Shown one piece after another: positions 9,435 to 35,446 of a stretch of DNA of 64,000 nt (within the stretch, counting starts at the first letter, position 1; the number at the start of each line of letters is the position of its first letter). The DNA is from an uncultured Actinomycetes bacterium. GTDB lineage: Bacteria; Actinomycetota; Thermoleophilia; Gaiellales; JAICJC01. The position numbers were made by a program, and so were the translations under genes. Below the pieces are notes generated by a model. That model was not told the DNA's origin. It searched no databases and saw only the letters and a list, made by a program, of their open reading frames with translations. The stretch spans positions 96,219 to 160,218 of the forward strand of contig CAWCPM010000008.1 in NCBI GenBank assembly GCA_963797565.1, read 5' to 3'.

Positions 9435-9483
9435 GCGCTCCCCGCGGCGCCGCGGACGGCGCCTTCTTGGTACCTTGACCGCG

Positions 9484-22253: not shown

Positions 22254-22301
22254 CGTGACGATCGGAGGCGTCGTATACTCGAGCCCGGTCGTCGGGGCAG
22301 G

Positions 22302-24764
22302 ATGACCCGTTGGTTCACCTCGAGTGGGGAGCGCTCCAAATTGACTGAGAACACTGCGCGCCGCAGGTTCGTGCGCTGGCCGATGGCCGTCCTGGCCGTC
22401 GCGATGCTGGGGCTGATAACGGCGCCGAGCGCGCTCACGGCCACACTCAACAGCACCTTTACCAACTCGGTTTCGGTGACCGGCACCAAGTTCCGGACGC
22501 ACACGATCGCCGTGGTTGCGCCCGGCACCATCAACGTCTCGCTCGACTGGGACGACGCGTCGGCCAAGCTGACGCTGTTCCTGACCGACCCCAACGGCGT
22601 GCAGGTGAGTGCCGTGACCACCACCGCAAAGCCGAAGGTGATCGCCTACAACGCCACCGTCTCGGGCACGTACAAGATCGGCGTGAAGGCCGCCACCGGC
22701 GGCGCCAACTACACGGTCACCGCCAGCTACCCGGGAGCTGACTCCACGGGCACCGGCCTCGTCCAGTTCCAGAAGGCGATCGGGTTCAGCGGGCCGGCCG
22801 GGCTCTACGCCTACGGCATGGACTGGGACTCGACCGACAACACGATCCTGGTCGGCGACTACTGGAACTACCGGGTCTGGCGCTACACGACCGACGGCCA
22901 GCTGGTCGGCTCGGTCTCCCAGCACGCGCTGGGCGGCCTCAGCGGCGGCATCACGGCCCCCTACGACATCGAGGCCGATCCCACCGATCTCAACTCGAGC
23001 GGCAAGGCGGCGCTGTGGGTGGCCGACCAGGGCAGCTCCCGCTTCGTCGAGTTCGACCACAACGGCAAGTGGCTGCAGACGATCGGCAAGATGAACGCCG
23101 GCCAGCCCACCGGCAGCGATGCCCAGCATCCCGGCCACAGCTACGGCCAGGGCTGCGACAACGGGCAGATGCAGATCCCGACCCACATCGCGGTCGACAC
23201 GGTGTTCTCGACCCACTACATCTACGTGTCGGATCCCCGCTGCCGCAACGTCTACATCTTCGACCACCAGGGCGGCTTCCACGGCCAGCTCGACTGGACC
23301 GGCTCCGGCGTGGGCACGCCGATCCCGCGCGGCGTCGGCGAGGATGCGGCCGGCAACATCTGGGTGGCCGAGTTCAACAGCCGCAGGATCTTCGTGTTCG
23401 GTCCGACGACGAAGAAGATCATCGGCTCGATCGGCCCGCAGAGCGACGAGAACGACGTGCGCGGTCTGGACATCGATCCGGTGAACCACCTGATCTACAC
23501 CGTCGGCGCGTACTGGAACCGCACCTACGAGTTCTCCTACGACCCGGCCAAGGTGGCCGCGGGCACCGGCGCCTCCAGCATCGTCGGCAAGTTCGTGAAC
23601 GAGTGGCGCAACATGGACGGCACCAACTTCGCCTCCGGCCACCAGCAGATGGACTCGATCCGGTTCCCGGCGGTCGACGGCCAGGGCAACGTGTACGTGG
23701 GCGAGACCTGGGGTTGCGACGCGGGGTGTACGGGTACCCCGTACGGCTACGGCGTGGAGAAGTACGCGCCGGGCAGCATCTCCGCGTTCCCGTCGTGCAC
23801 CGCCACCAACGCGCAGACCACCTGTGCCGGTGCCACCAGGCTGCCGTGGGCGACCGGCCCGCAGCCGCCGCCGCGGGGCGGGTTCAACCAGCAGAACGGC
23901 ATCGCCATCGATCCATCGGACAACTCGTTGTTCGTGGTCGACACGTTCGAGCAGCGCGTGCAGAAGTTCGACTCCACGTCCACGTGCACATCGGAGGCCA
24001 GCTGCCCGGCCTGGGAGCTGCAGTGGGGCTCGCGGCAGCCGGCCAGCCCGGCGTCGGACGGGTTCGGCTATCCGCGCGCGCTCACGTTCGGCGACGGCAT
24101 GGTCTGGGTCGGTGACAACAACAACGCCGTGATCACGTTCAAGCCGGATGGCACCTTCGTGCACCGCTACGGATCGCAGGGCCCGCAGCCCGGCATGTTC
24201 AAGGGCGGGGTGCAGGGCATCCACGTCGAGAACGGCAGGGTCTACGCCACCGACGTGGCCGGCTGCCGGCTGCAGGTGTTCGACGAGGCGAAGCTGCTGA
24301 GCGCGTCCAGCATCGCCACCGCCCCGGCCGGGACGCTGCTGGAGAACCTGGGCAGCTGCGGATCGGGCGTCAACCAGATGACGGCTCCCCGCGGCGTCGC
24401 GGTGTCCCCGGACGGGAACACCGTGTACGTTGCCGAGACCGGCAACAACCGCATCAGCGTGTGGAACCTGAGCACCAACTCGGCCACGACCGTGAAGCCG
24501 AGCTGCGGCGGCAAGGGCCTGGCCCAGCCCTGGGGCATCACCTGGGATCCCGGCAAGACGTGGCTCTACATCGGCGACGTCAAGAACGCGCGGGTGGTTC
24601 GCTGGAACCCATCCACCAACGTCTGCCAGGTCGTGGTCACGAGCAACGACCTGCCGGCGCAGTACCAGATGCTGGGCTCGAACTTCATCGAGTTCGACTC
24701 CAACGGCCTGATGTACGTGAGCGATAACGCTCGCCACATCTACGTGTTCCAGCTCACCGGCTAG
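22302..24764 (+). CDS. Secreted PPC-domain + NHL-repeat beta-propeller protein (possible Tat signal)
   Basis: N-terminal ARRRFVRW followed by a hydrophobic stretch. A PPC-like domain is present (INVSLDWDDASAKLTLFLTDPNG...GTYKIGVKA). At least 8 NHL-like repeats follow (VADQGSSRFVEFD, VSDPRCRNVYIFD, VAEFNSRRIFVFG, VVDTFEQRVQKFD, ATDVAGCRLQVFD, VAETGNNRISVWN, IGDVKNARVVRWN, VSDNARHIYVFQ). Confidence 0.75.
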   Translation: MTRWFTSSGERSKLTENTARRRFVRWPMAVLAVAMLGLITAPSALTATLNSTFTNSVSVTGTKFRTHTIAVVAPGTINVSLDWDDASAKLTLFLTDPNGVQVSAVTTTAKPKVIAYNATVSGTYKIGVKAATGGANYTVTASYPGADSTGTGLVQFQKAIGFSGPAGLYAYGMDWDSTDNTILVGDYWNYRVWRYTTDGQLVGSVSQHALGGLSGGITAPYDIEADPTDLNSSGKAALWVADQGSSRFVEFDHNGKWLQTIGKMNAGQPTGSDAQHPGHSYGQGCDNGQMQIPTHIAVDTVFSTHYIYVSDPRCRNVYIFDHQGGFHGQLDWTGSGVGTPIPRGVGEDAAGNIWVAEFNSRRIFVFGPTTKKIIGSIGPQSDENDVRGLDIDPVNHLIYTVGAYWNRTYEFSYDPAKVAAGTGASSIVGKFVNEWRNMDGTNFASGHQQMDSIRFPAVDGQGNVYVGETWGCDAGCTGTPYGYGVEKYAPGSISAFPSCTATNAQTTCAGATRLPWATGPQPPPRGGFNQQNGIAIDPSDNSLFVVDTFEQRVQKFDSTSTCTSEASCPAWELQWGSRQPASPASDGFGYPRALTFGDGMVWVGDNNNAVITFKPDGTFVHRYGSQGPQPGMFKGGVQGIHVENGRVYATDVAGCRLQVFDEAKLLSASSIATAPAGTLLENLGSCGSGVNQMTAPRGVAVSPDGNTVYVAETGNNRISVWNLSTNSATTVKPSCGGKGLAQPWGITWDPGKTWLYIGDVKNARVVRWNPSTNVCQVVVTSNDLPAQYQMLGSNFIEFDSNGLMYVSDNARHIYVFQLTG

Positions 24765-24809: not shown

Positions 24810-25964
24810 TCAGGCGGCTCGCCGACCGTGCTGGACGGCGTCGAAGTAGGCCACGCGGTCGGCATCGTCACCGGCCGATGCCAGGATTGCCCGGCGGCGT
24901 CCCAGCAGGTGCCCGACACGCGCCTTCACGTCACCGCCGAGGCGCGCCAGCAGCGCGGTGATGCTGGCGCCCAGCCCGCGCCGGGTGGCGCGCACCACCG
25001 TGCGTGAAAGCGACGGCCGGTTGGGCGGGCGATCGGGGGGCGACAGCCGCTCGCTGCCGCGCACGATCTGCTCCCAGACGCGGCTGCCCGAAAGCGCGTC
25101 CATCACCTGCGGCGGGATCGGCGCGTCAAGGAGCTGCGCGCTTCGCCGGAAGCTGACGGCCACCACTTCGGCAACGCGCCATGCGCGGGCGCGCGCCACC
25201 AGCTGCTCCCAGTCCAGACCCGGGTCGGCCGTGGCCCGCTCGATGTCCTTCAGCCAGGCCAGCTTTGCGCCGCCCGACAGGCCCGCGTGCACGGCGAGCT
25301 GCAGCAGCGTGTCCGCGGGGTCGAGTGTGAGCACATCTGGCCCGTCCAGCGACACGCGCCGGGCGCGCGCGAACAGCTCGTCCATGTCGATGGCGAAGCT
25401 GCCTCGCACCGAGGCGCGGTTGATCAGGTGCCAGTGCACGTCGGCGCAGGTGCCGAAGCGGGCCGTCATGTGCACCTGGCCCCGCATCTCGCGGCGGATC
25501 ACGCGCCAGTTGCGGTCGAGCATGTCGCAGCCGCTCTCCAGCAGCGCGGTGACGGCGTCGCCGAAGACCCGCCGGTCGATCACCAGGTCGAGGTCGCCGT
25601 ATGACCGCATGTCGTTGCGCGGGTAGATCACCTCCGCCAGCACCGGCCCTTTCACCACCATGAACGGGACGCCGGCGGCGTCCAGCGTGGCGGCCAGCGA
25701 GGTGAGCTCGCCGATCACCTTCATGTGGTGCGTCACGTTGAGGTGGTAGACGGTGGCCAGCAGCGAGCGCAGCTCGGGGTCGAGCGTCGGCAGCTCGCGC
25801 GCCGACAGGTAGAGCAGGTTCGCCACACCGTGCTCGGCGGCAGCCCTCCCCACCGTCCGCGGGTCGGCCCCCGCCAGCATCGCCTCGATGCCGTCCGGCG
25901 CGGCCGTCCAGTCGTGCTCGATGGTGCATCGGCGCAGCAGCTCGAACAGGTCGGGCGGCCTCAC
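24810..25964 (-). CDS. Nucleotidyltransferase-family protein (NTP_transf_5 / PF14907-like), lasso-cluster tailoring candidate
   Basis: The GTG at 25964 overlaps the B2 stop (GTGA). FMVVKGPVLAEVIYPRNDMRSYGDLDLVIDRRVFGDAVTALLESG is typical of this family. The 114-aa N-terminal extension in the track is Arg/Gly junk. Confidence 0.75.
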   Translation of the reverse strand: MRPPDLFELLRRCTIEHDWTAAPDGIEAMLAGADPRTVGRAAAEHGVANLLYLSARELPTLDPELRSLLATVYHLNVTHHMKVIGELTSLAATLDAAGVPFMVVKGPVLAEVIYPRNDMRSYGDLDLVIDRRVFGDAVTALLESGCDMLDRNWRVIRREMRGQVHMTARFGTCADVHWHLINRASVRGSFAIDMDELFARARRVSLDGPDVLTLDPADTLLQLAVHAGLSGGAKLAWLKDIERATADPGLDWEQLVARARAWRVAEVVAVSFRRSAQLLDAPIPPQVMDALSGSRVWEQIVRGSERLSPPDRPPNRPSLSRTVVRATRRGLGASITALLARLGGDVKARVGHLLGRRRAILASAGDDADRVAYFDAVQHGRRAA

Positions 25965-26368
25965 GTGAACCTCGCCATCGGCTCGTGCCCGGCCCGGCCC
26001 GGTGGCGGTCCCACGTCCATCCCGTTCAGCTCCACCCACGCGTGCGCGTCCTTGTTGATCGCGGCCTCCGGCAGGCCCACCACCAGCACCGCCGGGTCGC
26101 CCTGCTCCCTCAGCAGCCGGTACAGCACCAGCGCGTTGAAGATGCAGCGGGGGCGGCGCGAGCCGATCCGCAGCGTGCGGTCGATCGCCCAGCCCAGCTG
26201 CCGCGCCGGGATCGGCTCGCCGGAGCGCACCGGCACCGCGCCGAAGCTCGCGGCCAGCGCCGGCAGCGGCTCTCGCGACAGGCGCCCGCGCACCTGCGCG
26301 TAGCACGCGACGATGCGCACGGCCAGAGTGACGCGCCGCGTCAGGGGCAGGGGCGCCCGCGAGGTCAT
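25961..26368 (-). CDS. Lasso peptide biosynthesis B2 protein (transglutaminase-fold leader peptidase)
   Basis: 135 aa from the internal Met: ...RRPRCIFNALVLYRLLREQGDPAVLVVGL......DAHAWVELNG (Cys/His catalytic pattern). The ATGA overlaps the kinase stop. Confidence 0.85.
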   Translation of the reverse strand: MTSRAPLPLTRRVTLAVRIVACYAQVRGRLSREPLPALAASFGAVPVRSGEPIPARQLGWAIDRTLRIGSRRPRCIFNALVLYRLLREQGDPAVLVVGLPEAAINKDAHAWVELNGMDVGPPPGRAGHEPMARFT

Positions 26369-27267
26369 TCGTCGCACAGCGCCATCACCTGGGCCACCAC
26401 GTCGGGCAGCGTCTCGAACGTCATCGGCCTGTGGAACTGGTAGATGGGCACCGTGGTGGTGAGGTCGGCCAGCTGCTGAAACGCGCGGGTGCGGTCGGCC
26501 GTGTCTGGGACGCGGAATGCCAACGCCCACATGTCGCGGATGGCGGCGGCGCCGTCGATCCGCTCCATGCGCAGATCGGGGCCGTCGCCGACGTGTAGCA
26601 ACACGATCGCGGTCAGGGGCACGGGCCCGCCGTCGCCGCGGCGGTCCGGCTCGATCTCCAGGTAGGCCCGGCTGGCGCCCATCTCGACCAGCCGCATGCC
26701 GTCGGGGAGAACCGGGTTCGTCCGCATCCGCAGCAGCGCCGGGCCCGGCATCACGCACGGGTGCGGCTGCATCTGCACGCGAGCGATGTCCTCCGTGAGC
26801 AGCCGGCAGCCGGCGCCGTGCAGCGCCAGCGCCAGTGTGGTCTTGCCGTGCTTACCAGGCGCCGCCACGATCACGGCTCGGCCGTTTCGCTCGATGGCAG
26901 CGGCGTGCAGGGAGAGGTCGCCCTGGCGCGTGAACGTGACCATGGATGGCACCCCCCAGAGGTGCATCTCGCGCCGCCAGGGGTCGGTGCCGGCCGGCAC
27001 CTCGATCGTGCGGTCGAACGGCGCGATCCGGTACCAGCCGACGTTCTCGGCCCAGAAGTCGAAGATCTGGCCGCCGCCGTAGAGCCTTCCCGTCACGCCC
27101 GCCGACGTCGTCCAGTTCAGCAGAGGCGGCTCGTCGTGCTGCGGTTCGGCGCCGCGCATCTCGACCACCTCGATCTGGTCGGCGCTGACCCCTGGCCGCG
27201 TGAAGCGCAGGTCGATTGCGCTCCTGATGGAGAACCCGAAACACGTCTGCGGAGCGGAGGTGTTCAC
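26365..27267 (-). CDS. HPr-kinase-like serine kinase (lasso precursor C-terminal Ser kinase candidate)
   Basis: 300 aa from a GTG that overlaps the cyclase stop (GTGA). LHAAAIERNGRAVIVAAPGKHGKTTLALALHGAG is an HprK-type P-loop. The upstream part of the track ORF is low-complexity junk. Confidence 0.75.
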   Translation of the reverse strand: MNTSAPQTCFGFSIRSAIDLRFTRPGVSADQIEVVEMRGAEPQHDEPPLLNWTTSAGVTGRLYGGGQIFDFWAENVGWYRIAPFDRTIEVPAGTDPWRREMHLWGVPSMVTFTRQGDLSLHAAAIERNGRAVIVAAPGKHGKTTLALALHGAGCRLLTEDIARVQMQPHPCVMPGPALLRMRTNPVLPDGMRLVEMGASRAYLEIEPDRRGDGGPVPLTAIVLLHVGDGPDLRMERIDGAAAIRDMWALAFRVPDTADRTRAFQQLADLTTTVPIYQFHRPMTFETLPDVVAQVMALCDE

Positions 27268-29060
27268 CAGTTTGCGAGAAACGCGTGGGCGGAGGTCAGG
27301 TCGCGTGCCCAGCAATACTCCCAGAGCGTGAAGCCGCCCTGGTCGAGCCGCTCCGCCAGGCGCCGGTAGTCGACGCCGGCGATCCGGTGCGGCGGGTCGG
27401 CGATGTAGTGGCGCATGACGTCGTAATCGGCGTGCGTGAGCAGATGTTCGCCGAACACGGTCTTGTCCCTGCGGTCGAGGATCGCATCGGGCACGCGCCC
27501 GCGCAGGCAGCGTTTGACCAGTGTCTTCCTGCGCGTGTCGGGATACTTGACCTCGGCTCGCAGGCTCAGGAAGAACTCCCACAGGTCGACGTCCACGAAC
27601 GGACGGCGGACGTCCACGCCGTGGATCGCCGCCACCACCTCGTCGGCGGCCAGTGTTTCCGAGGAGCCGCCGAATGAGGAGGTCTGCAGGTTCACCCATC
27701 GCTGCCGCGCCGGCGTCAGCAGGTCGGGCCGCGGAGTCGTCGTCACGGCGCGGTGGGTGATCCAATCCGGCGGGGGGACGGCACGCTTGACACCGCGCCA
27801 GTTGAGGAAGCTGTTGGCCATCCGCCCGGGCACCAGCGACGGCACAAACTGCCTGGCGATGAACGGCCAGCCGGCTCCCCGGCGGCGCTGGGTGCGGACA
27901 AGCGACGCCACGGCCGAGAGCCGCCCGTGCATGAGCAGGTGCCCGGCGAGGTCCCCGCGGCTGTCGATCACGTACTCGGCGAGCTCGCCGGTCAGAAGCG
28001 AGCGATGACCGAGCCGGCGCGCCAGCGCGTAGTTCTCGTCCAGCTCCGGCACGGACACGATCGGCGTCGGGCAGTCCAGCAGGTCACCCCAGCGCTGCAC
28101 GTCGTCGAGGCCCTTGGCCTGCGGCCGGTAGGTGTGCAGCGGCATGCCCAGATGCTCCGCCACCAGCGCGATCCAGCCGCTCTCGTCCACGCTGGGCAGG
28201 TCGGGAAACACGGCCGACAACGCCCCGACCGGTGTGCCGAACCGCTGCTCGTGTCCGCGAGCGGCGAACGCGGCGACGGCCGGCGAATCGATGCCCCCCG
28301 AAAGCGACACCCCGTCGTTCCCGGTCAGGCAGCGCCCGACCGCCCGGTCGAACAGCTCGGTGAAACGCTCCTCGGCCTCGGCGGGGGTGAAGCGACCGGT
28401 CTCCACGAGCTGCTCCGGTTCCCAGTAGCGGTCGGCGCGCCGGCGACCTCCGCGATCGTGCGAAAGCACGGTGGCGGCCGCCATCCGCTTGACGCCCTTG
28501 ACGGCACAGTCGGCGTCGGCCCCGCCGCCCGTCCCGTAGAAGATGTGCTCGACGGCGTCCAGATCGGGCTCGCGAGGGATGCCTGCGCCCGCCAGAACCT
28601 GTTTCGCTTCGCTCGCGAGGTGAACCGCGAAGCCATCCTCGCGGTAGTGCACCGCGCGAAATCCGACCTGGTCTCGGAAGCTCCAGATCCGCTCGCCGTC
28701 GGTGACGGCGGCGGCGAACTGCCCGCGCAGACGGGCGGGGGCGCCCTCACCCCACACGCGAAACGCCTCCTCGACGACGTCGGCAGGCGTCTCGCCGGCG
28801 GCCGCTCGTCCGTGCGCCGCCAGCTGCTGACGCAGGTCGGCGGCGTTGTCGAGCCTGCCCGAGAACGCCGCAACCAGGCCGTTTCCGGTCGATATGGAGG
28901 CGTCGGCCACCTCGTCATCCTGGGACACGCCCAGCGCCACCGCACCGTGCTCGCGCACCTGCTGGTGGCCGCCACGATGCGGTGCGGCGTCAAGCATCTG
29001 GCGGACGCGATCCGGCTCAGCCGGTCCCGCCCTGCTGAGTCGTGCTGCCAGGGATCCCAT
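27264..29060 (-). CDS. Lasso peptide isopeptide-bond-forming cyclase (asparagine synthetase B-like, C protein)
   Basis: 598 aa. The N-terminal Ntn-like domain is followed by a PP-loop (CLTGNDGVSLSGGIDSPAVAAFAA). Context is with B1, B2 and a precursor. Confidence 0.9.
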   Translation of the reverse strand: MGSLAARLSRAGPAEPDRVRQMLDAAPHRGGHQQVREHGAVALGVSQDDEVADASISTGNGLVAAFSGRLDNAADLRQQLAAHGRAAAGETPADVVEEAFRVWGEGAPARLRGQFAAAVTDGERIWSFRDQVGFRAVHYREDGFAVHLASEAKQVLAGAGIPREPDLDAVEHIFYGTGGGADADCAVKGVKRMAAATVLSHDRGGRRRADRYWEPEQLVETGRFTPAEAEERFTELFDRAVGRCLTGNDGVSLSGGIDSPAVAAFAARGHEQRFGTPVGALSAVFPDLPSVDESGWIALVAEHLGMPLHTYRPQAKGLDDVQRWGDLLDCPTPIVSVPELDENYALARRLGHRSLLTGELAEYVIDSRGDLAGHLLMHGRLSAVASLVRTQRRRGAGWPFIARQFVPSLVPGRMANSFLNWRGVKRAVPPPDWITHRAVTTTPRPDLLTPARQRWVNLQTSSFGGSSETLAADEVVAAIHGVDVRRPFVDVDLWEFFLSLRAEVKYPDTRRKTLVKRCLRGRVPDAILDRRDKTVFGEHLLTHADYDVMRHYIADPPHRIAGVDYRRLAERLDQGGFTLWEYCWARDLTSAHAFLANW

Positions 29061-29132
29061 CCTCCCTCAGTGTAGTGATGGGCGTGCGTCTGTCCAGTCA
29101 ACCATGCGGCCGATAACCCGTCACCATGAGGG

Positions 29133-29160
29133 TTGACACGGCCGAGGTTAGGGGTATAGT
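29133..29160 (+). promoter_or_regulatory. Near-consensus sigma-70-type promoter for the precursor/exporter operon
   Basis: TTGACA (29133-38), a 16-nt spacer, then TATAGT (29155-60). The element ends 46 nt upstream of the precursor GTG. Confidence 0.45.
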
Positions 29161-29206
29161 TGCCCTGGCTTCCTAGTTGTCGTTCATCAGAAGAGGGGGG
29201 TACTCC

Positions 29207-29371
29207 GTGAAGTATGTAGCACCGGTGGTGGTGGATTTCGGTTCCATCGCTGACCACACGTTCATCCACACGAACAAGACGGGCCACCAGGTCCACAAGG
29301 ATCACATCGTGTGTGAGACCGACAAGTTCGGCGAGTATTCGTGCGGTAGCCACGGCGGCTCGACCAGCTAA
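29207..29371 (+). CDS. Lasso peptide precursor (54 aa)
   Basis: GTG at 29207 with GAGGGGGG ending 6 nt upstream (the track ORF begins at TTG 29177). The sequence is MKYVAPVVVDFGSIADHTFIHTNKTGHQVHKDHIVCETDKFGEYSCGSHGGSTS. The leader matches YxxPxLx3Gx5Tx. The gene is adjacent to the C/B2/B1 genes. Confidence 0.65.
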   Translation: MKYVAPVVVDFGSIADHTFIHTNKTGHQVHKDHIVCETDKFGEYSCGSHGGSTS

Positions 29372-29395: not shown

Positions 29396-30382
29396 TTGAC
29401 GGGCAGTTCATCCGGGGGCGCAACACCCCTGAGCGCTGTCCTGGATGCTCGTGACGTTACCCGGTCGTTCGGCGATAAGCAGGTTCTGTCCGGCGTCGAC
29501 CTTCAGGTCGGCGCCGGACGTATTTCTGCGCTGCTTGGCCCCAACGGCGCCGGCAAGACGACCTTCCTGCGGATCCTGACCGGGCTGCTCCTGGCAGAAG
29601 GCGGGCACGTGTCGGTGGCCGGGATCGATGTGCGCGACGACCCGATGGCCGCTCGTCGCCACATCGGGTTCTTCCCGTCCGCCGACCGCACCTTCTACAA
29701 CCGCATCACCGGCCTCGAGAACCTGGCCTTCTTCGGGCGCATGTACGGGATAGGCCGTCAGGAGGCATTGACGCGCGCCCGCCGGCGACTGGCCGACGTC
29801 GGTCTCAGCGACGCCGTCGACCAGCGCGTCGGGTTATACAGTCACGGCATGCAGAAGCGACTCTCGATGGCCCGCGCCCTGTTGATGGATCCACCCGTGC
29901 TGGTGATCGACGAGGCCACCGACGGGCTCGACCCCGAGGGCGCCCGGCGGGTGCAGGACCTGACCCGCTCGATCGCCGCCGACGGCACCGCCGTGATCTG
30001 GACGACCCAGAGGCTGGACGAGATCCGTGGGTTCGCCGACGCGGTCACCGTGCTCGACCAGGGCCGCACCACCTTCCAGGGCACCGTCGAGGATCTGATG
30101 CTGAAGTCGAGCGCGCGCGGGTATCTGCTACGGCTGCGAACCGGCGACTCGACGCTCGACGACGACGCTCTGGGGCGGGCCGGAGCGGCGTTGGGTGATC
30201 GCGGAAAGCTTGCGCGGGTGGGTGTCGACCGCGAACACTTCCGCCTCGACCTGGCCGAGCACGCGGTGCTGGGCGAGGTGCTGGCCGATCTATCGGCAAC
30301 CGGTGTCGTCGTGCTCGACTGCGCCCAGCAGCGCTCCGAGCTGGAGGAGTCGTTCCTGCGGCTGACGACGGCAAGGACGTGA
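29396..30382 (+). CDS. ABC transporter ATP-binding protein (lasso exporter/immunity candidate)
   Basis: Walker A GPNGAGKTT, signature YSHGMQKRL, and Walker B VLVIDEATDGLD are present. Confidence 0.9.
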   Translation: MTGSSSGGATPLSAVLDARDVTRSFGDKQVLSGVDLQVGAGRISALLGPNGAGKTTFLRILTGLLLAEGGHVSVAGIDVRDDPMAARRHIGFFPSADRTFYNRITGLENLAFFGRMYGIGRQEALTRARRRLADVGLSDAVDQRVGLYSHGMQKRLSMARALLMDPPVLVIDEATDGLDPEGARRVQDLTRSIAADGTAVIWTTQRLDEIRGFADAVTVLDQGRTTFQGTVEDLMLKSSARGYLLRLRTGDSTLDDDALGRAGAALGDRGKLARVGVDREHFRLDLAEHAVLGEVLADLSATGVVVLDCAQQRSELEESFLRLTTART

Positions 30383-31209
30383 CCCCCGGGAGATCGGGCG
30401 CACTCGCCGAGGCGTACAAGCTGGGGGCGTTCCTGCGGCGCGACCTGTTGGTGCGGCTGAGCTACCGCGGGGCCATCATCAGCGACTGGATCAACCTGTT
30501 CGCCCAGGCGCTGGTGTTCTCGTTCGTGTCCAAGCTGGTGCATCCGATCCACATCAACGGCGGCGGTCGCACCTCCTACATCGCCTTCGTCACCGTCGGG
30601 ATCGCCGTTGCAGGCTTCATGGCCGTGGGGCTGGCGCGGCTGGTCAGCGCCATACAGCAGGAGCAGTCGCTGGGAACGCTGGAGTCGCTGATGGTCACCC
30701 CCACCACCGCCAGCGTGATCCTGCTGGGCTCGGTCGTCTACGACCTGATCTACGTCCCGTTCCGGACGGTCATATTCCTGATCATCGTGTCGATCGTGTT
30801 CAACGTCAGCTTCGCCGCCAGCGGGTACATCCCCGCGCTGCTGATCCTGGCCGCGTTCATCCCGTTCGTGTGGGGGCTCGGGTCGATCTCCTCGGCCGGC
30901 GTGCTCACCTTCCGGCGCGGCTCGGGGGCGATCGGGTTTCTGACCTTCGCGCTGACCTTCACGTCGGGGGCGTACTTCCCGCTGACGCTGTTCCCGGGGT
31001 GGGTCGCGCCCCTGGCCAGGATCAACCCGATCGGGATCGCCATCACGGGCATGCGGGCGCAGTTGATCGGCGGCGCGGGGTGGGACGATGCGCTTGTCAC
31101 GATCGCCAAGCTGGTGCCGTTGTCCGGGCTTACGCTGATGCTGGGGCTGTACGCCTTCCGGCTGGCGATGCGTCGCGAGCGGCGACTCGGTACGCTCGGC
31201 CTGTACTGA
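30379..31209 (+). CDS. ABC-2 type transporter permease
   Basis: 276 aa with about 6 TM segments. The start has a 4-nt GTGA overlap with the ATPase gene. Confidence 0.8.
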   Translation: MTPGRSGALAEAYKLGAFLRRDLLVRLSYRGAIISDWINLFAQALVFSFVSKLVHPIHINGGGRTSYIAFVTVGIAVAGFMAVGLARLVSAIQQEQSLGTLESLMVTPTTASVILLGSVVYDLIYVPFRTVIFLIIVSIVFNVSFAASGYIPALLILAAFIPFVWGLGSISSAGVLTFRRGSGAIGFLTFALTFTSGAYFPLTLFPGWVAPLARINPIGIAITGMRAQLIGGAGWDDALVTIAKLVPLSGLTLMLGLYAFRLAMRRERRLGTLGLY

Positions 31210-31225
31210 CAAGGAGCGACTACGC

Positions 31226-31510
31226 ATGATCGACCCGACCACTCGAATCCGCCGCAACCCGGACGTCGTCTTCCGCCCGCTGGAGGAGGAGCAGGGTGGC
31301 GTACTCCTGCACCTGCAGTCGGGCGCCTACCACGGCCTCAACCAGTTCGGCTCGCTGATCTGGGGCTTGATCGAGAATGAGACACGTTTTGCCGACCTGG
31401 TGGACGGAGTGCGGGCTGAGTCGGAGGATGCGCCGGCCTCGGTCGAGGAGGACGTGTCCGGCTTCGTCGAGGACCTCAGTGCGCGCGACCTCGTGCAACT
31501 GACGCCCTAG
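31226..31510 (+). CDS. PqqD-family protein = lasso peptide B1 / RiPP recognition element
   Basis: 94 aa. RRNPDVVFRPLEEEQGGVLLHLQSGAYHGLNQFGSLIWGLI is the PqqD/RRE fold pattern. Confidence 0.85.
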   Translation: MIDPTTRIRRNPDVVFRPLEEEQGGVLLHLQSGAYHGLNQFGSLIWGLIENETRFADLVDGVRAESEDAPASVEEDVSGFVEDLSARDLVQLTP

Positions 31511-31522
31511 AGGGAGCGATCT

Positions 31523-33052
31523 TCACGAACTGGGCCGCGTGCGCCCGGATGCGCGACCGATCCGGGCGAACCGGCCCAGTATCAGGTTGTCCTCGTCGTC
31601 GAACGACGAGGTGGCAAGCAGGGCCGTCGCGTAGGCCAGGGTTGCGCCGGCCGCGCCGCCGAGGATGGCGAGCGCGGCCGGCGCAGAGTCCAGCAGCACC
31701 CGCAGGCCGGCCGCGGTCAGCACGAACACCGTCAGCGCTAGCCCCACCGGCCGTGACCAGTCCCCGAACGGCTGCATGCCCAGCACGCGGTACACCTGCC
31801 ACAGCCTGATCAGGTTCCAGATCACGATCGATATTCCCCAGGCCAGGCCGGCGCCGACCATGCCGTAGGGCGGGATCAGCGCCACGTTCAGGAGCACGTT
31901 CAGCACCAGCGCGATCACGCTGTTCTTGAGCACCAGGTCGGCGCGCCCGATCATCGTAACCACGTGGCCGCAGGGGCCGGTGGCGGCGTTCACCGTCTGT
32001 CCGATCGCGAGCAGCGCCAGGGGCCACGCGCCGCGCGCGTAGGTGGGGCCGTACAGGAGCGTCACGATCGGAAGGGCGAACAGGGTCAGGAACAGCAGCG
32101 GCGGGCAGCCGGCGATGGTCGACCACTTGGTGGCGAACCCGTACATGCGGTCCAGCCCGGCGTGGTCGGAGAGCGCGTACAGTCGTCCGATCTGGGGCTG
32201 GAACGCGATCCCGATCGGCAGGATGAACATCATTCCGAACAGGACGGTGCGAGTCGCGATCGAGTAGACCGCGACGTCGGCGGGCGGGCGCCACAGCCCC
32301 AGCAGGAGCGTGTCCGCCCACAGCAGCCCCACGCCGGCCAGCGATGCGCCCCACTGGTTGGCGCTGAACCGGATCAGCGCGCCGGTCTCGACGGTGGCGG
32401 CCTGCCGCAGCGTGCCGGTCACGCCCCGCGCCGCCAAGGCGGCCGCGGCAAGCGTCAGGTAGGACGCGATCGTGAAGGCCACCGCCGTGCCGTCGAGGCC
32501 GTAGCCGAGCGCCAGCGCGACGGCCACCAGCGCCACTCGCAGCACGCCGTCGGTGACCTGGTCGACCACCACGAACGCCTTCATGCGGCCGGTGCCGCGG
32601 GTCGCGCCGATCAGCACCATCTGCAGCGTCACCGCCGGCAACGACAGCACCATCACCCGCAGCACGTACTGCAGCTGGTGTGCGCCGAACAGGTCGGACA
32701 GCTGCGGCGCCAGCACGAACACCAGCGCCGCGATCGCGATCGACGCCCCGCCGGCCAGCAGCACCGAGAGCGCCACCGCCGCGCGCGCGCGGTCGTGCTC
32801 CCCCCGCGCGCGATGCACCGCCACGTAGCGGATCGCGGTCACGTCGAGGCCGAGCACGGCCAGCACCGACAGCAGCCGTACGGCCGCGAACCCTTCGAAG
32901 AAGATGCCCGCCGCATCCTGGTTCAAGGAGCGGCCGATCATCAGCACCAGGGCGAACTGCATGGCGTTGGCCGCGGCCAGCCCCACGAAGTTCACTGCCG
33001 ATCGCTGGACGAGCGTGGTTGTCTCAGGCTTGGCTGCGTCGTCCAGGGTCAT
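31523..33052 (-). CDS. MOP-superfamily oligosaccharide/polysaccharide flippase (Wzx-like)
   Basis: 509 aa with about 14 TM segments. The N-terminus (SAVNFVGLAAANAMQFALVLMIGRSL) and overall architecture are typical of polysaccharide biosynthesis flippases. Confidence 0.8.
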   Translation of the reverse strand: MTLDDAAKPETTTLVQRSAVNFVGLAAANAMQFALVLMIGRSLNQDAAGIFFEGFAAVRLLSVLAVLGLDVTAIRYVAVHRARGEHDRARAAVALSVLLAGGASIAIAALVFVLAPQLSDLFGAHQLQYVLRVMVLSLPAVTLQMVLIGATRGTGRMKAFVVVDQVTDGVLRVALVAVALALGYGLDGTAVAFTIASYLTLAAAALAARGVTGTLRQAATVETGALIRFSANQWGASLAGVGLLWADTLLLGLWRPPADVAVYSIATRTVLFGMMFILPIGIAFQPQIGRLYALSDHAGLDRMYGFATKWSTIAGCPPLLFLTLFALPIVTLLYGPTYARGAWPLALLAIGQTVNAATGPCGHVVTMIGRADLVLKNSVIALVLNVLLNVALIPPYGMVGAGLAWGISIVIWNLIRLWQVYRVLGMQPFGDWSRPVGLALTVFVLTAAGLRVLLDSAPAALAILGGAAGATLAYATALLATSSFDDEDNLILGRFARIGRASGRTRPSS

Positions 33053-33108: not shown

Positions 33109-34035
33109 CTAGGAGGAGACGTCCAGCGCCTGTTCGAGCCGGACGGACAGGTCGTCGCAGTGCCGCCGGATCTCAGGATCGATGTCGAGCGGCCGCGGCT
33201 CGGGCGCTTCACGACGCTCGATATGCGCGGCCAGCGAGGCGTCGAACGGGAAGTCCAGAAACGCGCAGAGCGCGCTCATGTTCCGGTCGGGGTCGGCCAG
33301 GAACCGGTCGTAGCAGGCCAGCGTGACGTCGTCGCGCCGATCGAGCCCGCGCTCGAAGTAGAGCGAGTTGCGCACGTACCAGAACAGGGCGGCGGCCGAC
33401 TCGGGCGTCATCGTCGAGTAGTCGAAGCTCTCGACCAGCGCCCGGTTCTCGGCCGACATGCCGCGCGCCTGCCAGCGGTGGTCGCCGCGGCCGGCTGCGA
33501 TCTCGGTCAGCACATCGAGGTTGTTGGTGCCGAACTTGGCCAGCGCCGAGCGCACGCGGCCGTCGACGTCGCGGTATGCCCAGATCGCTCGGCCCGGGCT
33601 GGGGGTGCCGAGCCCGTCCAGGATCTCGTCCACCCGGTGCGAGTCGCAGAGCGGCTTGAACAGCACATAGCGGTGGCCTGAGCGCATCACCAGGTCTCGC
33701 ACCACCGGATCCGGGCGCAGCTGGAACCGCTCAAAGGCGTCGCCGTCGTTCTCGTTTCGCACCTCGAACTCGGGCGATCGCTCCAGCCCCCGCACCAGCA
33801 TGTTGGTGCCCGAGCGCTGCACGCCCACCAGATAGACCGGAACCGCGCCGGGGGCGACCGAGTGGGTGCGCCGCCACCGGCGCTTGCGCAGCGCCAGCGG
33901 CACCCGCTCCATGGGGTTCAGCTGATCCTCCTCGATCAGCCGCCGGAATCCGTGCGCGCGGCCCCACTCCCAGTGGCGTCGCACGCGCATCCCGATCCAG
34001 CGCATGCGCGACTCTCGTCCGCTCTCAGTCTGCAC
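33109..34035 (-). CDS. Sulfotransferase family protein
   Basis: VYLVGVQRSGTNMLVRGLERSP is a PAPS-binding loop. The later region YRDVDGRVRSALAKFG is also consistent. 308 aa. Confidence 0.75.
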   Translation of the reverse strand: MQTESGRESRMRWIGMRVRRHWEWGRAHGFRRLIEEDQLNPMERVPLALRKRRWRRTHSVAPGAVPVYLVGVQRSGTNMLVRGLERSPEFEVRNENDGDAFERFQLRPDPVVRDLVMRSGHRYVLFKPLCDSHRVDEILDGLGTPSPGRAIWAYRDVDGRVRSALAKFGTNNLDVLTEIAAGRGDHRWQARGMSAENRALVESFDYSTMTPESAAALFWYVRNSLYFERGLDRRDDVTLACYDRFLADPDRNMSALCAFLDFPFDASLAAHIERREAPEPRPLDIDPEIRRHCDDLSVRLEQALDVSS

Positions 34036-34195
34036 GATCCGCAGTGTCGCAGAACGGGTGCGGCGCCGGATGCGACAACGCGGCGCTCTCGAATCTTAAG
34101 CTTGCTGTAAATAATCAGTAAGACTAGCGTCCAGCATGTAACGCAAGTAGTGGGGATTGCCGATACAGCCCCCGTATCCAGGGGTGCGTGCGCGG

Positions 34196-35446
34196 ATGGG
34201 TGCCCGCGCAAGCAGCCACAACACCATACGGGGGGATTCGTTGAAACGGTTACTTGCGGCCGCCGTGGCTGCGATCGCGACGATGCTCGTGGTCACGAAC
34301 GCCAGCGGTACGAGCTCGATCAGCATGGCAAGCGTGGGGTTTGCCAGCAGTGAGAACGGCATCCATCTATGGGCTCCGATGCACACGGCTCCGCAGAGGT
34401 TCACAACGCAGGCGGCTGCGGAGGACGCCGCCAAGCGTTTCGACCTGATCACGTTCAATCCAGCTCAGCTGGGCGGCTATGCGTCGGCGATGAAGGCCGC
34501 CAATCCCAACCTCAAGCTGTACGTCTATCTGAACGGCACGTTCCTTTACAAGCGGCTTTATGGCACGGTCGACCCGTCGATGCTCTCGCACGACGCGCAG
34601 GGCCATGTGGTCACATCGCACGGTTACGGCAACTACCTGGCCGATCCGGGCGACCCCAACTGGGTCTCCTATGTACAGCATTCGTGCGCGAAGCTGCTGT
34701 CCGGGACGGTCTACGACGGCTGTTACCTCGACATGCTGGGCACGGCGCCGCTGTGGCCCGGCTACACCACCGGGCTGCCGATCAACCCGGCCACCGGGCA
34801 GGTCTGGACGCGGCTTGACTGGCTGAATGCGACCAGCGCGCTGGCCGCCAACGTGGCATCGTTCACCGGCAAGGCGGTGCTCGGCAACGGCATCGGCAAC
34901 GGGCCCCGGTACTTCGCACCAGGCGCGCCCAGCAAGCTGCTGCTGAACGGTGCGACCGGCGTCAGCGCCGAGGCCTGGACGCGTCTGGCGGGTGCTCCGC
35001 TGTCCCGCTTCGAGCCGACGAAGGCCTGGGTGCAGGACGTGAACATGCTGAGCGATGCGAGTTCCACCGGCGGTCTGGCCCTGACCATCACCAAGACCTG
35101 GACGGCCGGCACCACCGATCAGAAGGAGGATGCCCGCAGGTTCGCGCTGGCCAGCTTCCTGCTCGGCAACGACGGCAACTCGTACTTCTACTTCACGGCC
35201 AACAAGACCGATCCGGCCACGCTGGACGATCCGCTGTACCACCTGCAGATCGGCTCGCCGACCGGGCTCTACGTGGTGCAGAACGGCGTCTACATACGCA
35301 ACTTCACCAACGGGAAGGTCATGGTCAATACGACAGATTCGCCGGTCTCGGTCGATCTGGGCGGTGCGTACCGCCGCCCGGATGGGAGCTTCGCGCTGGG
35401 TGCCACGCTGCCGGCGCACGGCTCTCAGATCTTCACCAAGTCCTGA
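34196..35446 (+). CDS. Secreted hypothetical protein, putative glycoside-hydrolase-like TIM barrel (GHL15-type)
   Basis: Signal peptide LKRLLAAAVAAIATMLVVTNASG. ANPNLKLYVYLNG...YLADPGDPNWVSYVQ...YDGCYLDMLG resembles GHL-family patterns. The start is ambiguous (ATG 34196 or TTG 34241). Confidence 0.55.
   Translation: MGARASSHNTIRGDSLKRLLAAAVAAIATMLVVTNASGTSSISMASVGFASSENGIHLWAPMHTAPQRFTTQAAAEDAAKRFDLITFNPAQLGGYASAMKAANPNLKLYVYLNGTFLYKRLYGTVDPSMLSHDAQGHVVTSHGYGNYLADPGDPNWVSYVQHSCAKLLSGTVYDGCYLDMLGTAPLWPGYTTGLPINPATGQVWTRLDWLNATSALAANVASFTGKAVLGNGIGNGPRYFAPGAPSKLLLNGATGVSAEAWTRLAGAPLSRFEPTKAWVQDVNMLSDASSTGGLALTITKTWTAGTTDQKEDARRFALASFLLGNDGNSYFYFTANKTDPATLDDPLYHLQIGSPTGLYVVQNGVYIRNFTNGKVMVNTTDSPVSVDLGGAYRRPDGSFALGATLPAHGSQIFTKS

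What the first reader, a model, noticed from the sequence alone, without database searches (positions are those of the whole stretch)
29207..29371. Precursor has a textbook lasso leader but a core that breaks the ring rules
Translation from GTG 29207 gives MKYVAPVVVDFGSIADHTFIHTNKTGHQVHKDHIVCETDKFGEYSCGSHGGSTS. Y3-x2-P6-x-V8-x3-G12-x5-T18-x19 matches the YxxPxLx3Gx5Tx leader recognition motif position for position, which predicts cleavage after F19. That core (IHTNKTGHQ...) begins with Ile and has no Asp/Glu at positions 7-9, so no canonical macrolactam is possible. The Thr-containing dipeptide is reiterated (DHTF-IHTN-KTGH), which offers two other sites. Cleavage after N23 (Thr at -2) gives Lys1...Asp9. 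Cleavage after T25 gives Gly1...Asp7, a ring size I know only from huascopeptin, but with Lys rather than Thr at -2. Cys36 and Cys46 could form one disulfide. The peptide has six His. The C-terminal Ser54 fits kinase tailoring. Either the cleavage/ring rule is unusual here or the leader is processed twice.
Basis: partly seen in the sequence, partly recalled or inferred. Interest (0 to 1): 0.75.

Follow-up and report, generated by a model that had tools for sequence, protein, structure and literature searches.

The report
Lasso-type precursor with non-canonical core
This small gene is a real, conserved precursor of an uncharacterised and widespread family of lasso-like peptides from uncultured soil bacteria. 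Its leader is textbook, but the whole family lacks the usual ring-forming acid and instead carries a conserved C-terminal box that goes with the ring-forming enzyme.

Summary
GTG 29207 opens a 54-codon gene with a canonical lasso leader (Y3, P6, G12, T18). It has no Asp/Glu at core positions 7-9.

- **Gene and cluster.** The gene is under purifying selection and has a conserved promoter. It sits among a lasso cyclase, split B1/B2, an HprK-like kinase, a PsmN-like nucleotidyltransferase and an ABC-2 exporter.
- **Family.** I found 174 distinct cores with the same leader, nearly all from uncultured Actinomycetota and Chloroflexota. HTF is invariant, and one relative has a canonical G1-D8 core directly after it, so cleavage after F19 is the best call.
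T22 varies with Val. Position 24 includes Pro and Asp. D32 is replaced in relatives that still have a cyclase.
- **Double processing is disfavoured.** Cys counts are even only for the full post-HTF peptide.
- **The rule break is family-wide.** D/E at positions 7-9 occurs at chance frequency. The universal residues are K31, D39, E43 and S45 in a C-terminal box, and this box is absent where the cyclase is absent.

The ring is therefore probably closed onto D39. The amine partner is unresolved. No product has been seen.

The parts
29133..29160 (+). Sigma-70-type promoter TTGACA-16-TATAGT for the precursor gene
   Evidence: 11 of 12 matches, versus 0.1 expected in shuffles. Both hexamers are conserved in 14 close relatives while the spacer varies.
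29190..29200 (+). Ribosome-binding site GAAGAGGGGGG
   Evidence: Read directly. A GAGGGGG core is conserved in relatives.
29207..29371 (+). Precursor gene (A), 54 codons plus stop
   Evidence: Translation. 26 homologous clusters. dN/dS 0.18. Same position between the cyclase and the ABC genes in relatives.
29207..29263 (+). Leader, residues 1-19 (MKYVAPVVVDFGSIADHTF). Y(-17), P(-14) and T(-2) give the inferred B2 cleavage site after F19.
   Evidence: G12, T18 and F19 are invariant, and Y3, P6, D10, I14 and H17 are at least 90% conserved, across 43 divergent members. The spacing rule is taken from PMC10368454. L078 has canonical G1-D8 cores directly after HTF.
29264..29368 (+). Inferred core, residues 20-54 (35 aa): IHTNKTGHQVHKDHIVCETDKFGEYSCGSHGGSTS
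   Evidence: Cys parity is even for the full post-HTF peptide in 149 of 152 cores. C3-C44 covariation is 19/1/1/111.
29297..29344 (+). Conserved C-terminal box K31-C46 (KDHIVCETDKFGEYSC). Universal residues are K31, D39, E43 and S45. C36-C46 is the disulfide pair.
   Evidence: D39 is invariant and S45 at least 90% conserved. By definition of the anchoring motif, the acid four residues after the box Asp is Glu in 122 and Asp in 10 of 132 cores. A Lys lies 5-11 residues upstream of the box Asp in 131 of 132. dN/dS is 0.10. The box is absent from peptides in cyclase-less operons.
27264..29060 (-). Lasso-cyclase-type asparagine synthetase homologue (C), divergent from A
   Evidence: Asn_synthase 2.1e-27 and GATase_7. 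lass_lactam_cya scores 112 bits, below its cutoff. The SGGIDS PP-loop is present and there is no N-terminal Cys.
26365..27267 (-). HprK-related kinase (K), start overlapping the stop of C
   Evidence: TIGR04352 HprK_rel_A, partial match, 3.2e-13, far below its cutoff. P-loop GKHGKTT is present. No Pfam hit and no PDB hit.
25961..26368 (-). Leader peptidase B2 (transglutaminase-like)
   Evidence: Transglut_core3 3.4e-12. NF033537 lasso_biosyn_B2 scores 41.2 bits, above its cutoff of 33.
24810..25970 (-). NTP_transf_5 nucleotidyltransferase (PsmN-like); start approximate
   Evidence: PF14907 5.3e-40.
29396..30382 (+). ABC transporter ATPase
   Evidence: ABC_tran 3.3e-27; drrA-like.
30379..31209 (+). 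ABC-2 permease
   Evidence: ABC2_membrane 2.2e-15.
31226..31510 (+). PqqD-like leader-binding protein B1 (RRE)
   Evidence: Best NCBIfam hits are lasso_PqqD_Bac (6.1e-10) and lasso_PqqD_Strm, both below cutoff. The 97%-identical orthologue in L001 carries PF05402 PqqD.

Best explanation
**What it is.** The ORF is the genuine precursor of an uncharacterised, widespread clade of kinase-associated lasso-type RiPPs.

**Steps shown or strongly supported**
- B1 binds the YxxP leader.
- B2 cuts at the canonical site after T18-F19.
- The entire 35-residue remainder (I20-S54) is the core and stays in one piece.
- The core carries a C36-C46 disulfide.

**Inferred steps**
- The cyclase does not use an acid at positions 7-9. 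It acts on the conserved C-terminal box K31-C46 and most likely adenylates the invariant Asp39 (less likely Glu43).
- The amine partner is unresolved. If it is the new N-terminal amine of I20, the result is a 20-residue head-to-side-chain ring with C36 in the ring tied to C46 in the tail. If it is the near-invariant Lys31 side chain, the result is a 9-residue side-chain ring.
- The HprK-like kinase phosphorylates a Ser, most probably the C-terminal S54, as in paeninodin.
- The NTP_transf_5 enzyme elaborates the phosphate, as PsmN does in pseudomycoidin.
- The ABC-2 pump exports the product.
For: **Cluster composition.**

**Cleavage site**
- HTF is invariant in 43 divergent members.
- Y(-17)/P(-14) spacing follows PMC10368454.
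- L078 encodes two canonical cores, GQPGHRYDHGIFPASA and GKPGHRYDHGVFPASVP, directly after HTF, with a cyclase present.

**Whole post-HTF peptide retained**
- Cys count is even in 149 of 152 full cores. It is odd in 40 of 152 if the N-terminus were 8 residues before D39, and odd in 53 of 152 if it were at C36.
- Cys at core position 3 co-occurs with Cys at box position 44 (19/1/1/111).

**No canonical acceptor**
- D/E at positions 7-9 is seen in 21.7% of cores, against 26.8% expected from composition.

**The box is the cyclase-linked element**
- D39 is invariant.
- Six loci (L021, L022, L036, L046, L072, L081) have a cyclase but no acid between core position 7 and the box Asp.
- Among loci with at least 3 accessory genes in view, 46 have both the cyclase and a box or canonical acceptor, 7 have neither, 1 has a box but no cyclase, and 4 have a cyclase but only a variant box. 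Fisher p = 8e-6, not corrected for phylogeny.
- The cyclase-less state was checked with Pfam in L033, L056 and L062.

**Lys31.** A Lys lies 5-11 residues upstream of the box Asp in 131 of 132 cores.

**Selection.** dN/dS is 0.10 for the leader and the box, and 0.35 for residues 20-30.
Against: - No product has been observed. Everything rests on comparative sequence analysis.
- No lasso cyclase is known to close rings larger than 9 residues or to use a Lys side chain (my knowledge, and the reviews read).
- Residue 1 is extremely variable (17 residue types; I/V/L/Q/H/M among close relatives). That is unusual for a ring-forming residue.
- The cyclase-versus-box correlation rests on only about 3 independent cyclase-less lineages and on 8-kb sequence blocks.
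- In this subfamily there are only two Cys, so the parity argument applies to it by homology only.
- The C-terminal Ser is not conserved among close relatives (15 of 30), so the phosphorylation site is uncertain.
- D32 is invariant within the close subfamily, so a subfamily-specific I20-D32 13-residue ring cannot be excluded.
Confidence: 0.5

Rival explanations
1. Shifted cleavage gives a canonical small ring onto Asp32. B2 cuts after N23 (Lys1-Asp9) or after T25 (Gly1-Asp7), perhaps because the cleavage-site codons were duplicated.
For: - The spacings fit.
- Position 22 is only Thr or Val in 30 close relatives. Those are isosteric residues of the kind tolerated at -2 in other lasso leaders (my knowledge; Ile/Val(-2) in PMC10368454).
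- N23, G26 and D32 are nearly invariant in the subfamily.
- The DNA reads CACACGTTCATC/CACACGAACAAG at 29255-29278, which looks like a 12-nt tandem duplication.
Against: - Position 24 is K/S/N/R/P/D. Pro and Asp are implausible as the ring-forming residue 1.
- For the G26 site, positions -2 and -1 are variable and are not Thr/Ile/Val. G26 is Asn in two members.
- The leader spacing Y(-17)/P(-14) points to F19.
- The HTN and KTGH motifs are absent outside this subfamily. The spacing from HTF to D32 ranges from 9 to about 30 residues.
- The D32 equivalent is G/S/N in relatives that keep the cyclase.
Confidence: 0.1
2. Cleavage is canonical after F19, and the ring is closed from the I20 amine onto Asp32. 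This gives an expanded 13-residue ring, with both Cys in the tail.
For: - D32 is invariant in the close subfamily.
- In the nearest outgroup (P0025, P0026, L020, L043, L057) the same Lys-Asp sits at core positions 8-9, which is a canonical 9-residue ring.
- The window peptide differs from that outgroup by four extra residues inside the segment.
Against: - The D32 equivalent is not conserved in the wider family: it is Asp in only 75 of 132 cores.
- Six cyclase-containing loci have no acid upstream of the box Asp.
- The ring would range from 9 to about 30 residues across the family.
- D39, not D32, is the invariant acid.
Confidence: 0.12
3. There are two proteolytic steps. After canonical cleavage, the variable segment I20-H30 is trimmed. 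A class-III-like lasso then forms from the box alone: ring K31-D39 with a C36-C46 disulfide. An alternative ring would be C36-E43.
For: - The box alone has the size and layout of a complete lasso core: a 9-residue ring, Cys three residues before the acceptor, and a 15-residue tail with bulky F41 and Y44.
- This resembles BI-32169 (G1-D9, C6-C19; my knowledge).
- The residue 8 positions before D39 is K, G or S in 131 of 149 cores.
Against: - Removing the segment would leave an unpaired Cys in 40 of 152 family members, or 53 of 152 for the C36 start.
- There is no consensus protease site before the box: PP|K, VH|K, TK|G and KQ|G are all seen.
- No extra protease gene is in the cluster.
- Residues 20-30 are under purifying selection (dN/dS 0.35; H21, N23, G26, H27 and H30 nearly invariant).
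- For the C36-E43 ring, some members would have a tail of only 4 residues.
Confidence: 0.08
4. No macrolactam forms. The peptide is matured only by leader removal, disulfide formation and Ser phosphorylation with phospho-linked glycosylation. It may serve the surrounding polysaccharide locus. The cyclase homologue does something else or nothing.
For: - Operons with the same leader, B1, B2, kinase, nucleotidyltransferase and ABC genes but no cyclase exist (L014, L033, L047, L056, L062). The kinase/B1/B2 module therefore works without a cyclase.
- The cluster is nested in an EPS-type locus with two sulfotransferases, Wzy-like proteins, a flippase and glycosyltransferases.
Against: - The cyclase is conserved at 38-99% identity next to nearly every box-type precursor.
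- It keeps the SGGxDS ATP-binding loop.
- The box and the cyclase are gained and lost together.
Confidence: 0.12

Closest known systems
Paeninodin / pseudomycoidin-type phosphorylated lasso peptide clusters (PadeK, ThcoK, PsmK kinases; PsmN nucleotidyltransferase)
   Same: - Split B1/B2.
- Asn-synthetase-type cyclase.
- HprK-like kinase and PF14907 nucleotidyltransferase.
- Precursors that mostly end in Ser.
   Different: - The known members have a 7-9 residue ring from residue 1, and the conserved C-terminal Ser is the only kinase site.
- Here there is no acid at positions 7-9.
- The core is 35 aa and carries a conserved internal box (K31, D39, E43, S45).
- It has an ABC-2 two-component exporter.
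- The C-terminal Ser is not conserved among close relatives.
BsfA/BsfK system of Bradymonas sediminis (PMC10368454)
   Same: - Kinase-type lasso cluster with the Y(-17)xxP(-14) leader rule.
- It shows that kinase-type clusters can depart from textbook rules: Ile at -2, and phosphorylation of an internal Ser with help from B1.
   Different: - BsfA has a canonical Gly1-Asp8 core.
- Here the -2 Thr is canonical and it is the core that departs from the rules.
Class III (BI-32169) and class I lasso peptides with ring-to-tail disulfides
   Same: - A Cys three residues before the putative acceptor Asp (C36 before D39) is paired with a tail Cys (C46).
- BI-32169 has the same layout, C6 before D9 paired with C19 (my knowledge).
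- In other family members this pair is replaced by C3-C44, which lies on the other side of the same junction.
   Different: - In the known classes the ring is 9 residues from residue 1.
- Here D39 is core residue 20, and its position ranges from 14 to 55 in the family.
HPr-rel-A system of NCBIfam (TIGR04352 HprK-related kinase A plus TIGR04353 PqqD family chaperone)
   Same: - The kinase's best family hit is TIGR04352.
- B1 weakly hits TIGR04353.
- The cyclase-less operons found here resemble such a kinase-plus-PqqD cassette.
   Different: - Both scores are far below the curated cutoffs: 49 versus 200 bits, and 17 versus 35 bits.
- This is therefore a relative, not a member.

Membership tests
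Lasso peptide precursor / biosynthetic cluster (canonical definition) | Leader with YxxPxLx3Gx5Tx, Thr at -2 | tested here: met
   Y3, P6, V8, G12 and T18 are present. G12, T18 and F19 are invariant across the family. The curated leader model NF033521 gives only 12.1 bits against a cutoff of 19.
Lasso peptide precursor / biosynthetic cluster (canonical definition) | Adjacent Asn-synthetase-type cyclase, PqqD-like B1 and transglutaminase-like B2 | tested here: met
   Asn_synthase and Transglut_core3. B2 passes the NF033537 cutoff. B1's best hits are lasso PqqD models, below cutoff, and its orthologue carries PF05402. The cyclase-specific model NF033535 gives only 112 bits against a cutoff of 525.
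Lasso peptide precursor / biosynthetic cluster (canonical definition) | Asp or Glu at core position 7, 8 or 9 as macrolactam acceptor | tested here: not met
   Core positions 7-9 are G, H, Q. In the family, D/E at 7-9 is seen in 21.7% of cores, against 26.8% expected by composition.
Lasso peptide precursor / biosynthetic cluster (canonical definition) | Conserved small ring-forming residue 1 (Gly, Ala, Ser or Cys; rarely others) | tested here: not met
   Residue 1 is Ile here. It is I/V/L/Q/H/M in close relatives and takes 17 residue types in the family.
Lasso peptide precursor / biosynthetic cluster (canonical definition) | Threaded lariat topology of the product | not testable with these tools
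   Needs MS/MS, NMR, or carboxypeptidase and heat assays on the product.
Paeninodin-type phosphorylated lasso peptides | HprK-like kinase gene in the cluster | tested here: inconclusive
   Partial TIGR04352 match, 49 bits against a cutoff of 200. The P-loop is present. No Pfam or PDB match. Homologues sit beside most family precursors.
Paeninodin-type phosphorylated lasso peptides | Strictly conserved C-terminal Ser as phosphorylation site | tested here: inconclusive
   The window peptide ends in Ser. The C-terminal residue is Ser in 105 of 174 cores and [ST]-Pro in 29 more. It is Ser in only 15 of 30 close relatives.
Pseudomycoidin-type (PsmN) tailoring | PF14907 nucleotidyltransferase in the cluster | tested here: met
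   NTP_transf_5 5.3e-40.
Class III lasso peptides | One disulfide between a ring Cys and a tail Cys | tested here: inconclusive
   C36 and C46 co-vary (71/10/1/50). Whether C36 lies in a ring depends on the unresolved cross-link.

The most novel reading that the evidence does not exclude
The cyclase homologue of this clade makes a macrolactam of a kind not known for lasso enzymes, closed onto the invariant box Asp39. It is either a very large head-to-side-chain ring (20 residues here, 14-55 across the family) locked to the tail by a disulfide, or a Lys31-Asp39 side-chain ring that leaves both termini free. This would define a new structural class of lasso-derived RiPPs. The class would be widespread in uncultured Thermoleophilia, Acidimicrobiia and Chloroflexota. 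It would be tailored by phosphorylation and phospho-linked glycosylation, and in this lineage it is embedded in a sulfated-polysaccharide locus.
Probability: 0.4. Interest if true: 0.85.

Novelty: new variant of a known kind. Interest (0 to 1): 0.62.

Why it matters
- **Genome-mining rules.** Lasso peptide mining relies on Thr at -2, a small residue 1 and an acid at positions 7-9. Here at least 174 distinct precursors sit beside bona fide lasso machinery and fail the core half of that rule as a family, so current tools will mis-score or mis-cut them.
- **Enzymology.** If the cyclase closes onto the box Asp, the ring-size limit of lasso cyclases, or their restriction to the N-terminal amine, is not general.
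- **A natural experiment.** The family contains canonical members, box-type members and cyclase-less members, all with one leader. That makes cyclase substrate recognition directly testable.
- **Access.** All members come from uncultured lineages, so heterologous expression is the only route to the product.

Tried and rejected
- **Locus search with the divergent alignment.** I replaced it with a degenerate DNA pattern scan.
- **Literature.** Full-text searches found nothing for the peptide motifs, for HprK-related kinase or PF14907, or for lasso peptides in Gaiellales/Thermoleophilia. Zhu et al. 2016 (PMC4919450) is not held.
- **Metanodin (PMC12670498).** I followed this up because one family locus is from a Steroidobacteraceae MAG. 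It is unrelated: a proteobacterial ABC-type cluster making a canonical Asn1-Asp9 ring.
- **PDB sequence searches.** The peptide profile gave no hit and the kinase gave no meaningful hit. The cyclase hit only the hydroxyamidotransferase 7ylz.
- **RNA genes.** Rfam and tRNA scans of the window were empty.
- **Ring hypotheses rejected:**
  - C36-E43 ring: Cys parity is odd in 53 of 152, and some tails would be only 4 residues.
  - E37 as acceptor: it is Ala in P0005 and P0006.
  - The box as a removable follower peptide, with the variable segment as the product: Cys in the variable segment pair with box Cys.
- **Alternative start.** The upstream TTG at 29177 is only 17 nt after the -10 element, and the RBS lies inside that extension.
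- **Structure prediction.** I did not attempt it. AlphaFold cannot model isopeptides, and fusion constructs are not accepted.

Full report
**Observation**

A purine-rich ribosome-binding site, GAAGAGGGGGG, ends 6 nt before the GTG. A TTGACA-16-TATAGT promoter lies at 29133-29160. In 14 close relatives the start codon is GTG or ATG at the same position, and both promoter hexamers are conserved while the spacer drifts. Pairwise dN/dS over the 14 coding sequences is 0.18 overall: 0.10 in the leader, 0.35 in residues 20-30, 0.10 in residues 31-47 and 0.31 in residues 48-52. This is an expressed, selected gene.

**Surroundings**

Divergently upstream lie four genes on the minus strand:
- an Asn-synthetase-type cyclase, 27264-29060, with an SGGIDS loop and no N-terminal Cys;
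- an HprK-related kinase, 26365-27267;
- a B2 peptidase, 25961-26368, which passes the NCBIfam lasso B2 cutoff;
- a PF14907 nucleotidyltransferase, 24810 to about 25970.

Downstream on the plus strand lie an ABC ATPase, an ABC-2 permease and a 94-aa PqqD-like B1 at 31226-31510. The B1 orthologue in L001 carries PF05402. The cluster is therefore of the paeninodin/pseudomycoidin kind: cyclase, B1, B2, kinase and nucleotidyltransferase. It is nested in an EPS-type locus with two sulfotransferases, two Wzy-like proteins, a priming sugar transferase, GH5, GT4 enzymes, a flippase and GHL15. The closest relatives are Gaiellales/Thermoleophilia MAGs.

**Homologues of the peptide**

A word-indexed search found 26 clusters at 63-96% identity. 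A profile search of 1.8 billion representatives found 74 hits, nearly all peptides of 45-70 aa. A degenerate DNA pattern for Y..P...D.GSI..HTF found 92 genomic stretches, against about 3 expected by my own estimate. All but one are labelled MAGs. They come from Actinomycetota (Gaiellales, Thermoleophilia, Acidimicrobiia), Chloroflexota, Gemmatimonadota and a few other groups. tblastn with the window's proteins shows cyclase, kinase, B2, B1 and ABC-2 homologues at 38-99% identity beside nearly all of them. Together this gives 174 distinct post-leader sequences.

**Where the leader ends**

Across 43 divergent members, G12, T18 and F19 are invariant, and Y3, P6, D10, I14 and H17 are at least 90% conserved. 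Similarity collapses immediately after F19. The published spacing rule for split-B lasso systems, Tyr(-17)/Pro(-14)/Leu(-12), places -1 at F19 (PMC10368454). Locus L078 carries two precursors in which HTF is followed directly by textbook cores, GQPGHRYDHGIFPASA and GKPGHRYDHGVFPASVP (Gly1-Asp8), with a cyclase present. Cleavage after F19 is therefore the best-supported site.

In 30 close relatives the relevant positions vary as follows:

| Position | Residues seen |
|---|---|
| 22 | Thr, or Val in 9 of 30 |
| 24 | K/S/N/R/P/D |
| 25 | T/Q/N/H |
| 26 | Gly, or Asn in 2 |

Thr/Val at position 22 would be compatible with a -2 role. Pro or Asp as ring residue 1 is not plausible, and the Gly26 site has no conserved -2 residue. 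Outside this subfamily the HTN and KTGH motifs do not exist. The DNA does suggest that HTFI/HTNK arose by a 12-nt tandem duplication (29255-29278, 8 of 12 identical). This may be how the extra residues arose, but it does not show that the second copy is cut.

**Is the segment after F19 removed later?**

Cys counts say no. Among box-containing cores the full post-HTF peptide has an even number of Cys in 149 of 152. If the mature N-terminus lay 8 residues before D39, 40 of 152 would be odd. If it lay at C36, 53 of 152 would be odd. Three covariations support this:
- A Cys at core position 3 (the xRC families) occurs together with a Cys at box position 44 (ECS). The counts are 19 both, 111 neither, 2 discordant.
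- Cys in the middle of the variable segment co-occur with an extra Cys at box position 40 or 42.
- C36 and C46 co-vary (71/10/1/50).

The variable segment is therefore disulfide-bonded to the box in the mature molecule. This argues against double processing, against a follower-peptide model, and against a lasso built from the box alone. In the window's own subfamily there are only two Cys, so the argument reaches it by homology.

**The ring rule fails family-wide**

D/E at core positions 7-9 occurs in 21.7% of box-type cores, and composition alone predicts 26.8%. After the variable segment, which places the box Asp at core position 14 to 55, the cores share a box: K-[DG]-x3-C-x2-D-K-F-G-E-Y-S-C.
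- D39 is invariant.
- Cores were anchored on the motif D-x3-[E/D]-x-S. Within that set the acid four residues after the Asp is Glu in 122 and Asp in 10 of 132. Ser45 is at least 90% conserved in the independent 43-member alignment.
- A Lys lies 5-11 residues upstream of D39 in 131 of 132.

It is G, S, C or N in subfamilies that keep the cyclase. Six loci with a cyclase (L021, L022, L036, L046, L072, L081) have no acidic residue between core position 7 and the box Asp. If the enzyme makes an isopeptide there, it must use the box.

**Cyclase and box go together**

Among loci where at least three accessory genes were in view:

| Cyclase | Box or canonical acceptor | Count |
|---|---|---|
| present | present | 46 |
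| absent | absent | 7 |
| absent | present | 1 |
| present | variant box only (CRIETTNCELSHP) | 4 |

- The single box-without-cyclase locus is L028, where the cyclase probably lies off the 8-kb block.
- Fisher p = 8e-6, not corrected for phylogeny.
- The cyclase-less operons (A, ABC, B1, kinase, B2, nucleotidyltransferase in L014, L033, L047, L056, L062) encode the same leader but unrelated cores.
- Pfam found no Asn synthetase in L033, L056 or L062.
- These represent perhaps three independent lineages, so the support is moderate.

**Mechanism**

Shown or strongly supported:
- the gene is a genuine precursor;
- the leader is canonical and the cleavage site is after F19;
- the 35-aa core stays in one piece;
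- C36 and C46 form a disulfide;
- there is no selection for an acceptor at positions 7-9.

Inferred:
- The cyclase adenylates D39, or less likely E43.
- The amine partner is unresolved. If it is the I20 alpha-amine, C36 lies 3 residues before the junction and C3 (in the xRC families) lies 2 residues after it. Both pair with tail positions 44-46. That interchangeability mirrors class I and III lasso peptides and mildly favours this option. If it is the Lys31 side chain, the ring is local and independent of the variable segment's length, which would explain the invariant Lys.
- The kinase most likely targets the C-terminal Ser. The cyclase-less peptides keep only a C-terminal S-x-P-S or Ser, and 77% of the family end in Ser or [ST]-Pro. 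Only half of the close relatives end in Ser, so S52 or S45 remain candidates.
- By analogy with PsmN, the PF14907 enzyme would elaborate the phosphate.

**Comparison with the known**

It works like a kinase-type lasso system and shares all of that system's enzymes. It fails two defining features of a canonical lasso core: the acceptor at positions 7-9 and a conserved small residue 1. Curated models for the leader, cyclase, B1 and kinase all score below cutoff, and only B2 passes. No paper in the searchable library mentions the motifs or these clusters. Reviews up to 2026 list only C-terminal Ser phosphorylation and small changes of ring size. I file it as a new variant of a known kind.

**Verdict**

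The rule is unusual rather than the leader being cut twice, and the unusual rule belongs to a large family whose common denominator is a C-terminal box linked to the cyclase.
- Interest is 0.62. The finding is solid and gives a testable handle on cyclase specificity. It remains purely in silico, and the key cross-link is unresolved.

Noticed in passing
window 9259-35446: The lasso-type cluster is nested in an EPS-type locus. The locus has sulfotransferases at 9259-10425 and 33109-34035(-), Wzy_C proteins at 10131-12377 and 18471-19883, GH5 at 12740-13612, and a priming sugar transferase at 13614-15200(-). It also has a phosphodiesterase at 17398-18468, two GT4 genes at 19885-22253, an NHL-repeat protein at 22302-24764, a flippase at 31523-33052(-) and GHL15 at 34157-35446. 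The flippase keeps its place next to B1 in relatives down to about 60% identity; the sulfotransferase was seen only in L001 and L038 within the blocks held. A link between the phospho-peptide and a sulfated polysaccharide is conceivable.
   Followed up: partly
L014, L033, L047, L056, L062 (whole loci): These operons have the same leader, ABC-2, B1, kinase, B2 and nucleotidyltransferase genes but no cyclase. Their cores have neither the box nor a 7-9 acceptor, for example APKSWPPGNSGSTGNFPLAEFPGGSSPS and GGADRPVVGGAAPRKFSLDVDRR. They look like a lasso-derived pathway that makes linear phosphopeptides.
   Followed up: partly
L078 606-859 (+): Two tandem precursors have the family leader and fully canonical Gly1-Asp8 cores (GQPGHRYDHGIFPASA and GKPGHRYDHGVFPASVP). 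They sit beside cyclase, B1, B2, kinase and nucleotidyltransferase genes. This is a useful positive control for the family's cleavage site.
   Followed up: partly
window 29100-29180: Besides the -35 and -10 hexamers, two short blocks are conserved in 14 relatives. One is ATAAnnCGTCA, about 10 nt upstream of the -35. The other is GCCTTGGCTTCGTAG, just after the -10. They may be a regulator site and the start of the 5' UTR.
   Followed up: no
window 29487-29520 (+): A terminator-like hairpin with a 15-bp stem and a T-rich tail lies about 115 nt after the precursor stop codon, inside the 5' end of the ABC ATPase gene. It could set the ratio of precursor to transporter transcript.
   Followed up: no
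window 29255-29278 (+): CACACGTTCATC followed by CACACGAACAAG (HTFI/HTNK) matches at 8 of 12 positions. It looks like a 12-nt tandem duplication of the cleavage-site codons. This may be the origin of the four extra residues relative to the ITPGGHTKD-type outgroup.
   Followed up: partly
L001 10001-10165 and neighbours (P0014): In this 96-99% identical contig the precursor reads RSTRITSY where the window has QVHKDHIV, a frameshift-like patch. The cyclase is called at only 457 aa and the kinase is not called. This is either assembly error or a decaying copy.
   Followed up: no
window 3217-6159 (+): A 980-aa protein fuses an APH-type phosphotransferase domain to a class-III aminotransferase.
   Followed up: no
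window 21090-24737 (-): A 1215-codon ORF lies antisense to the GT4 and NHL-repeat genes. The window is 70% G+C, and this is a shadow ORF of the kind such DNA produces, not a gene.
   Followed up: partly
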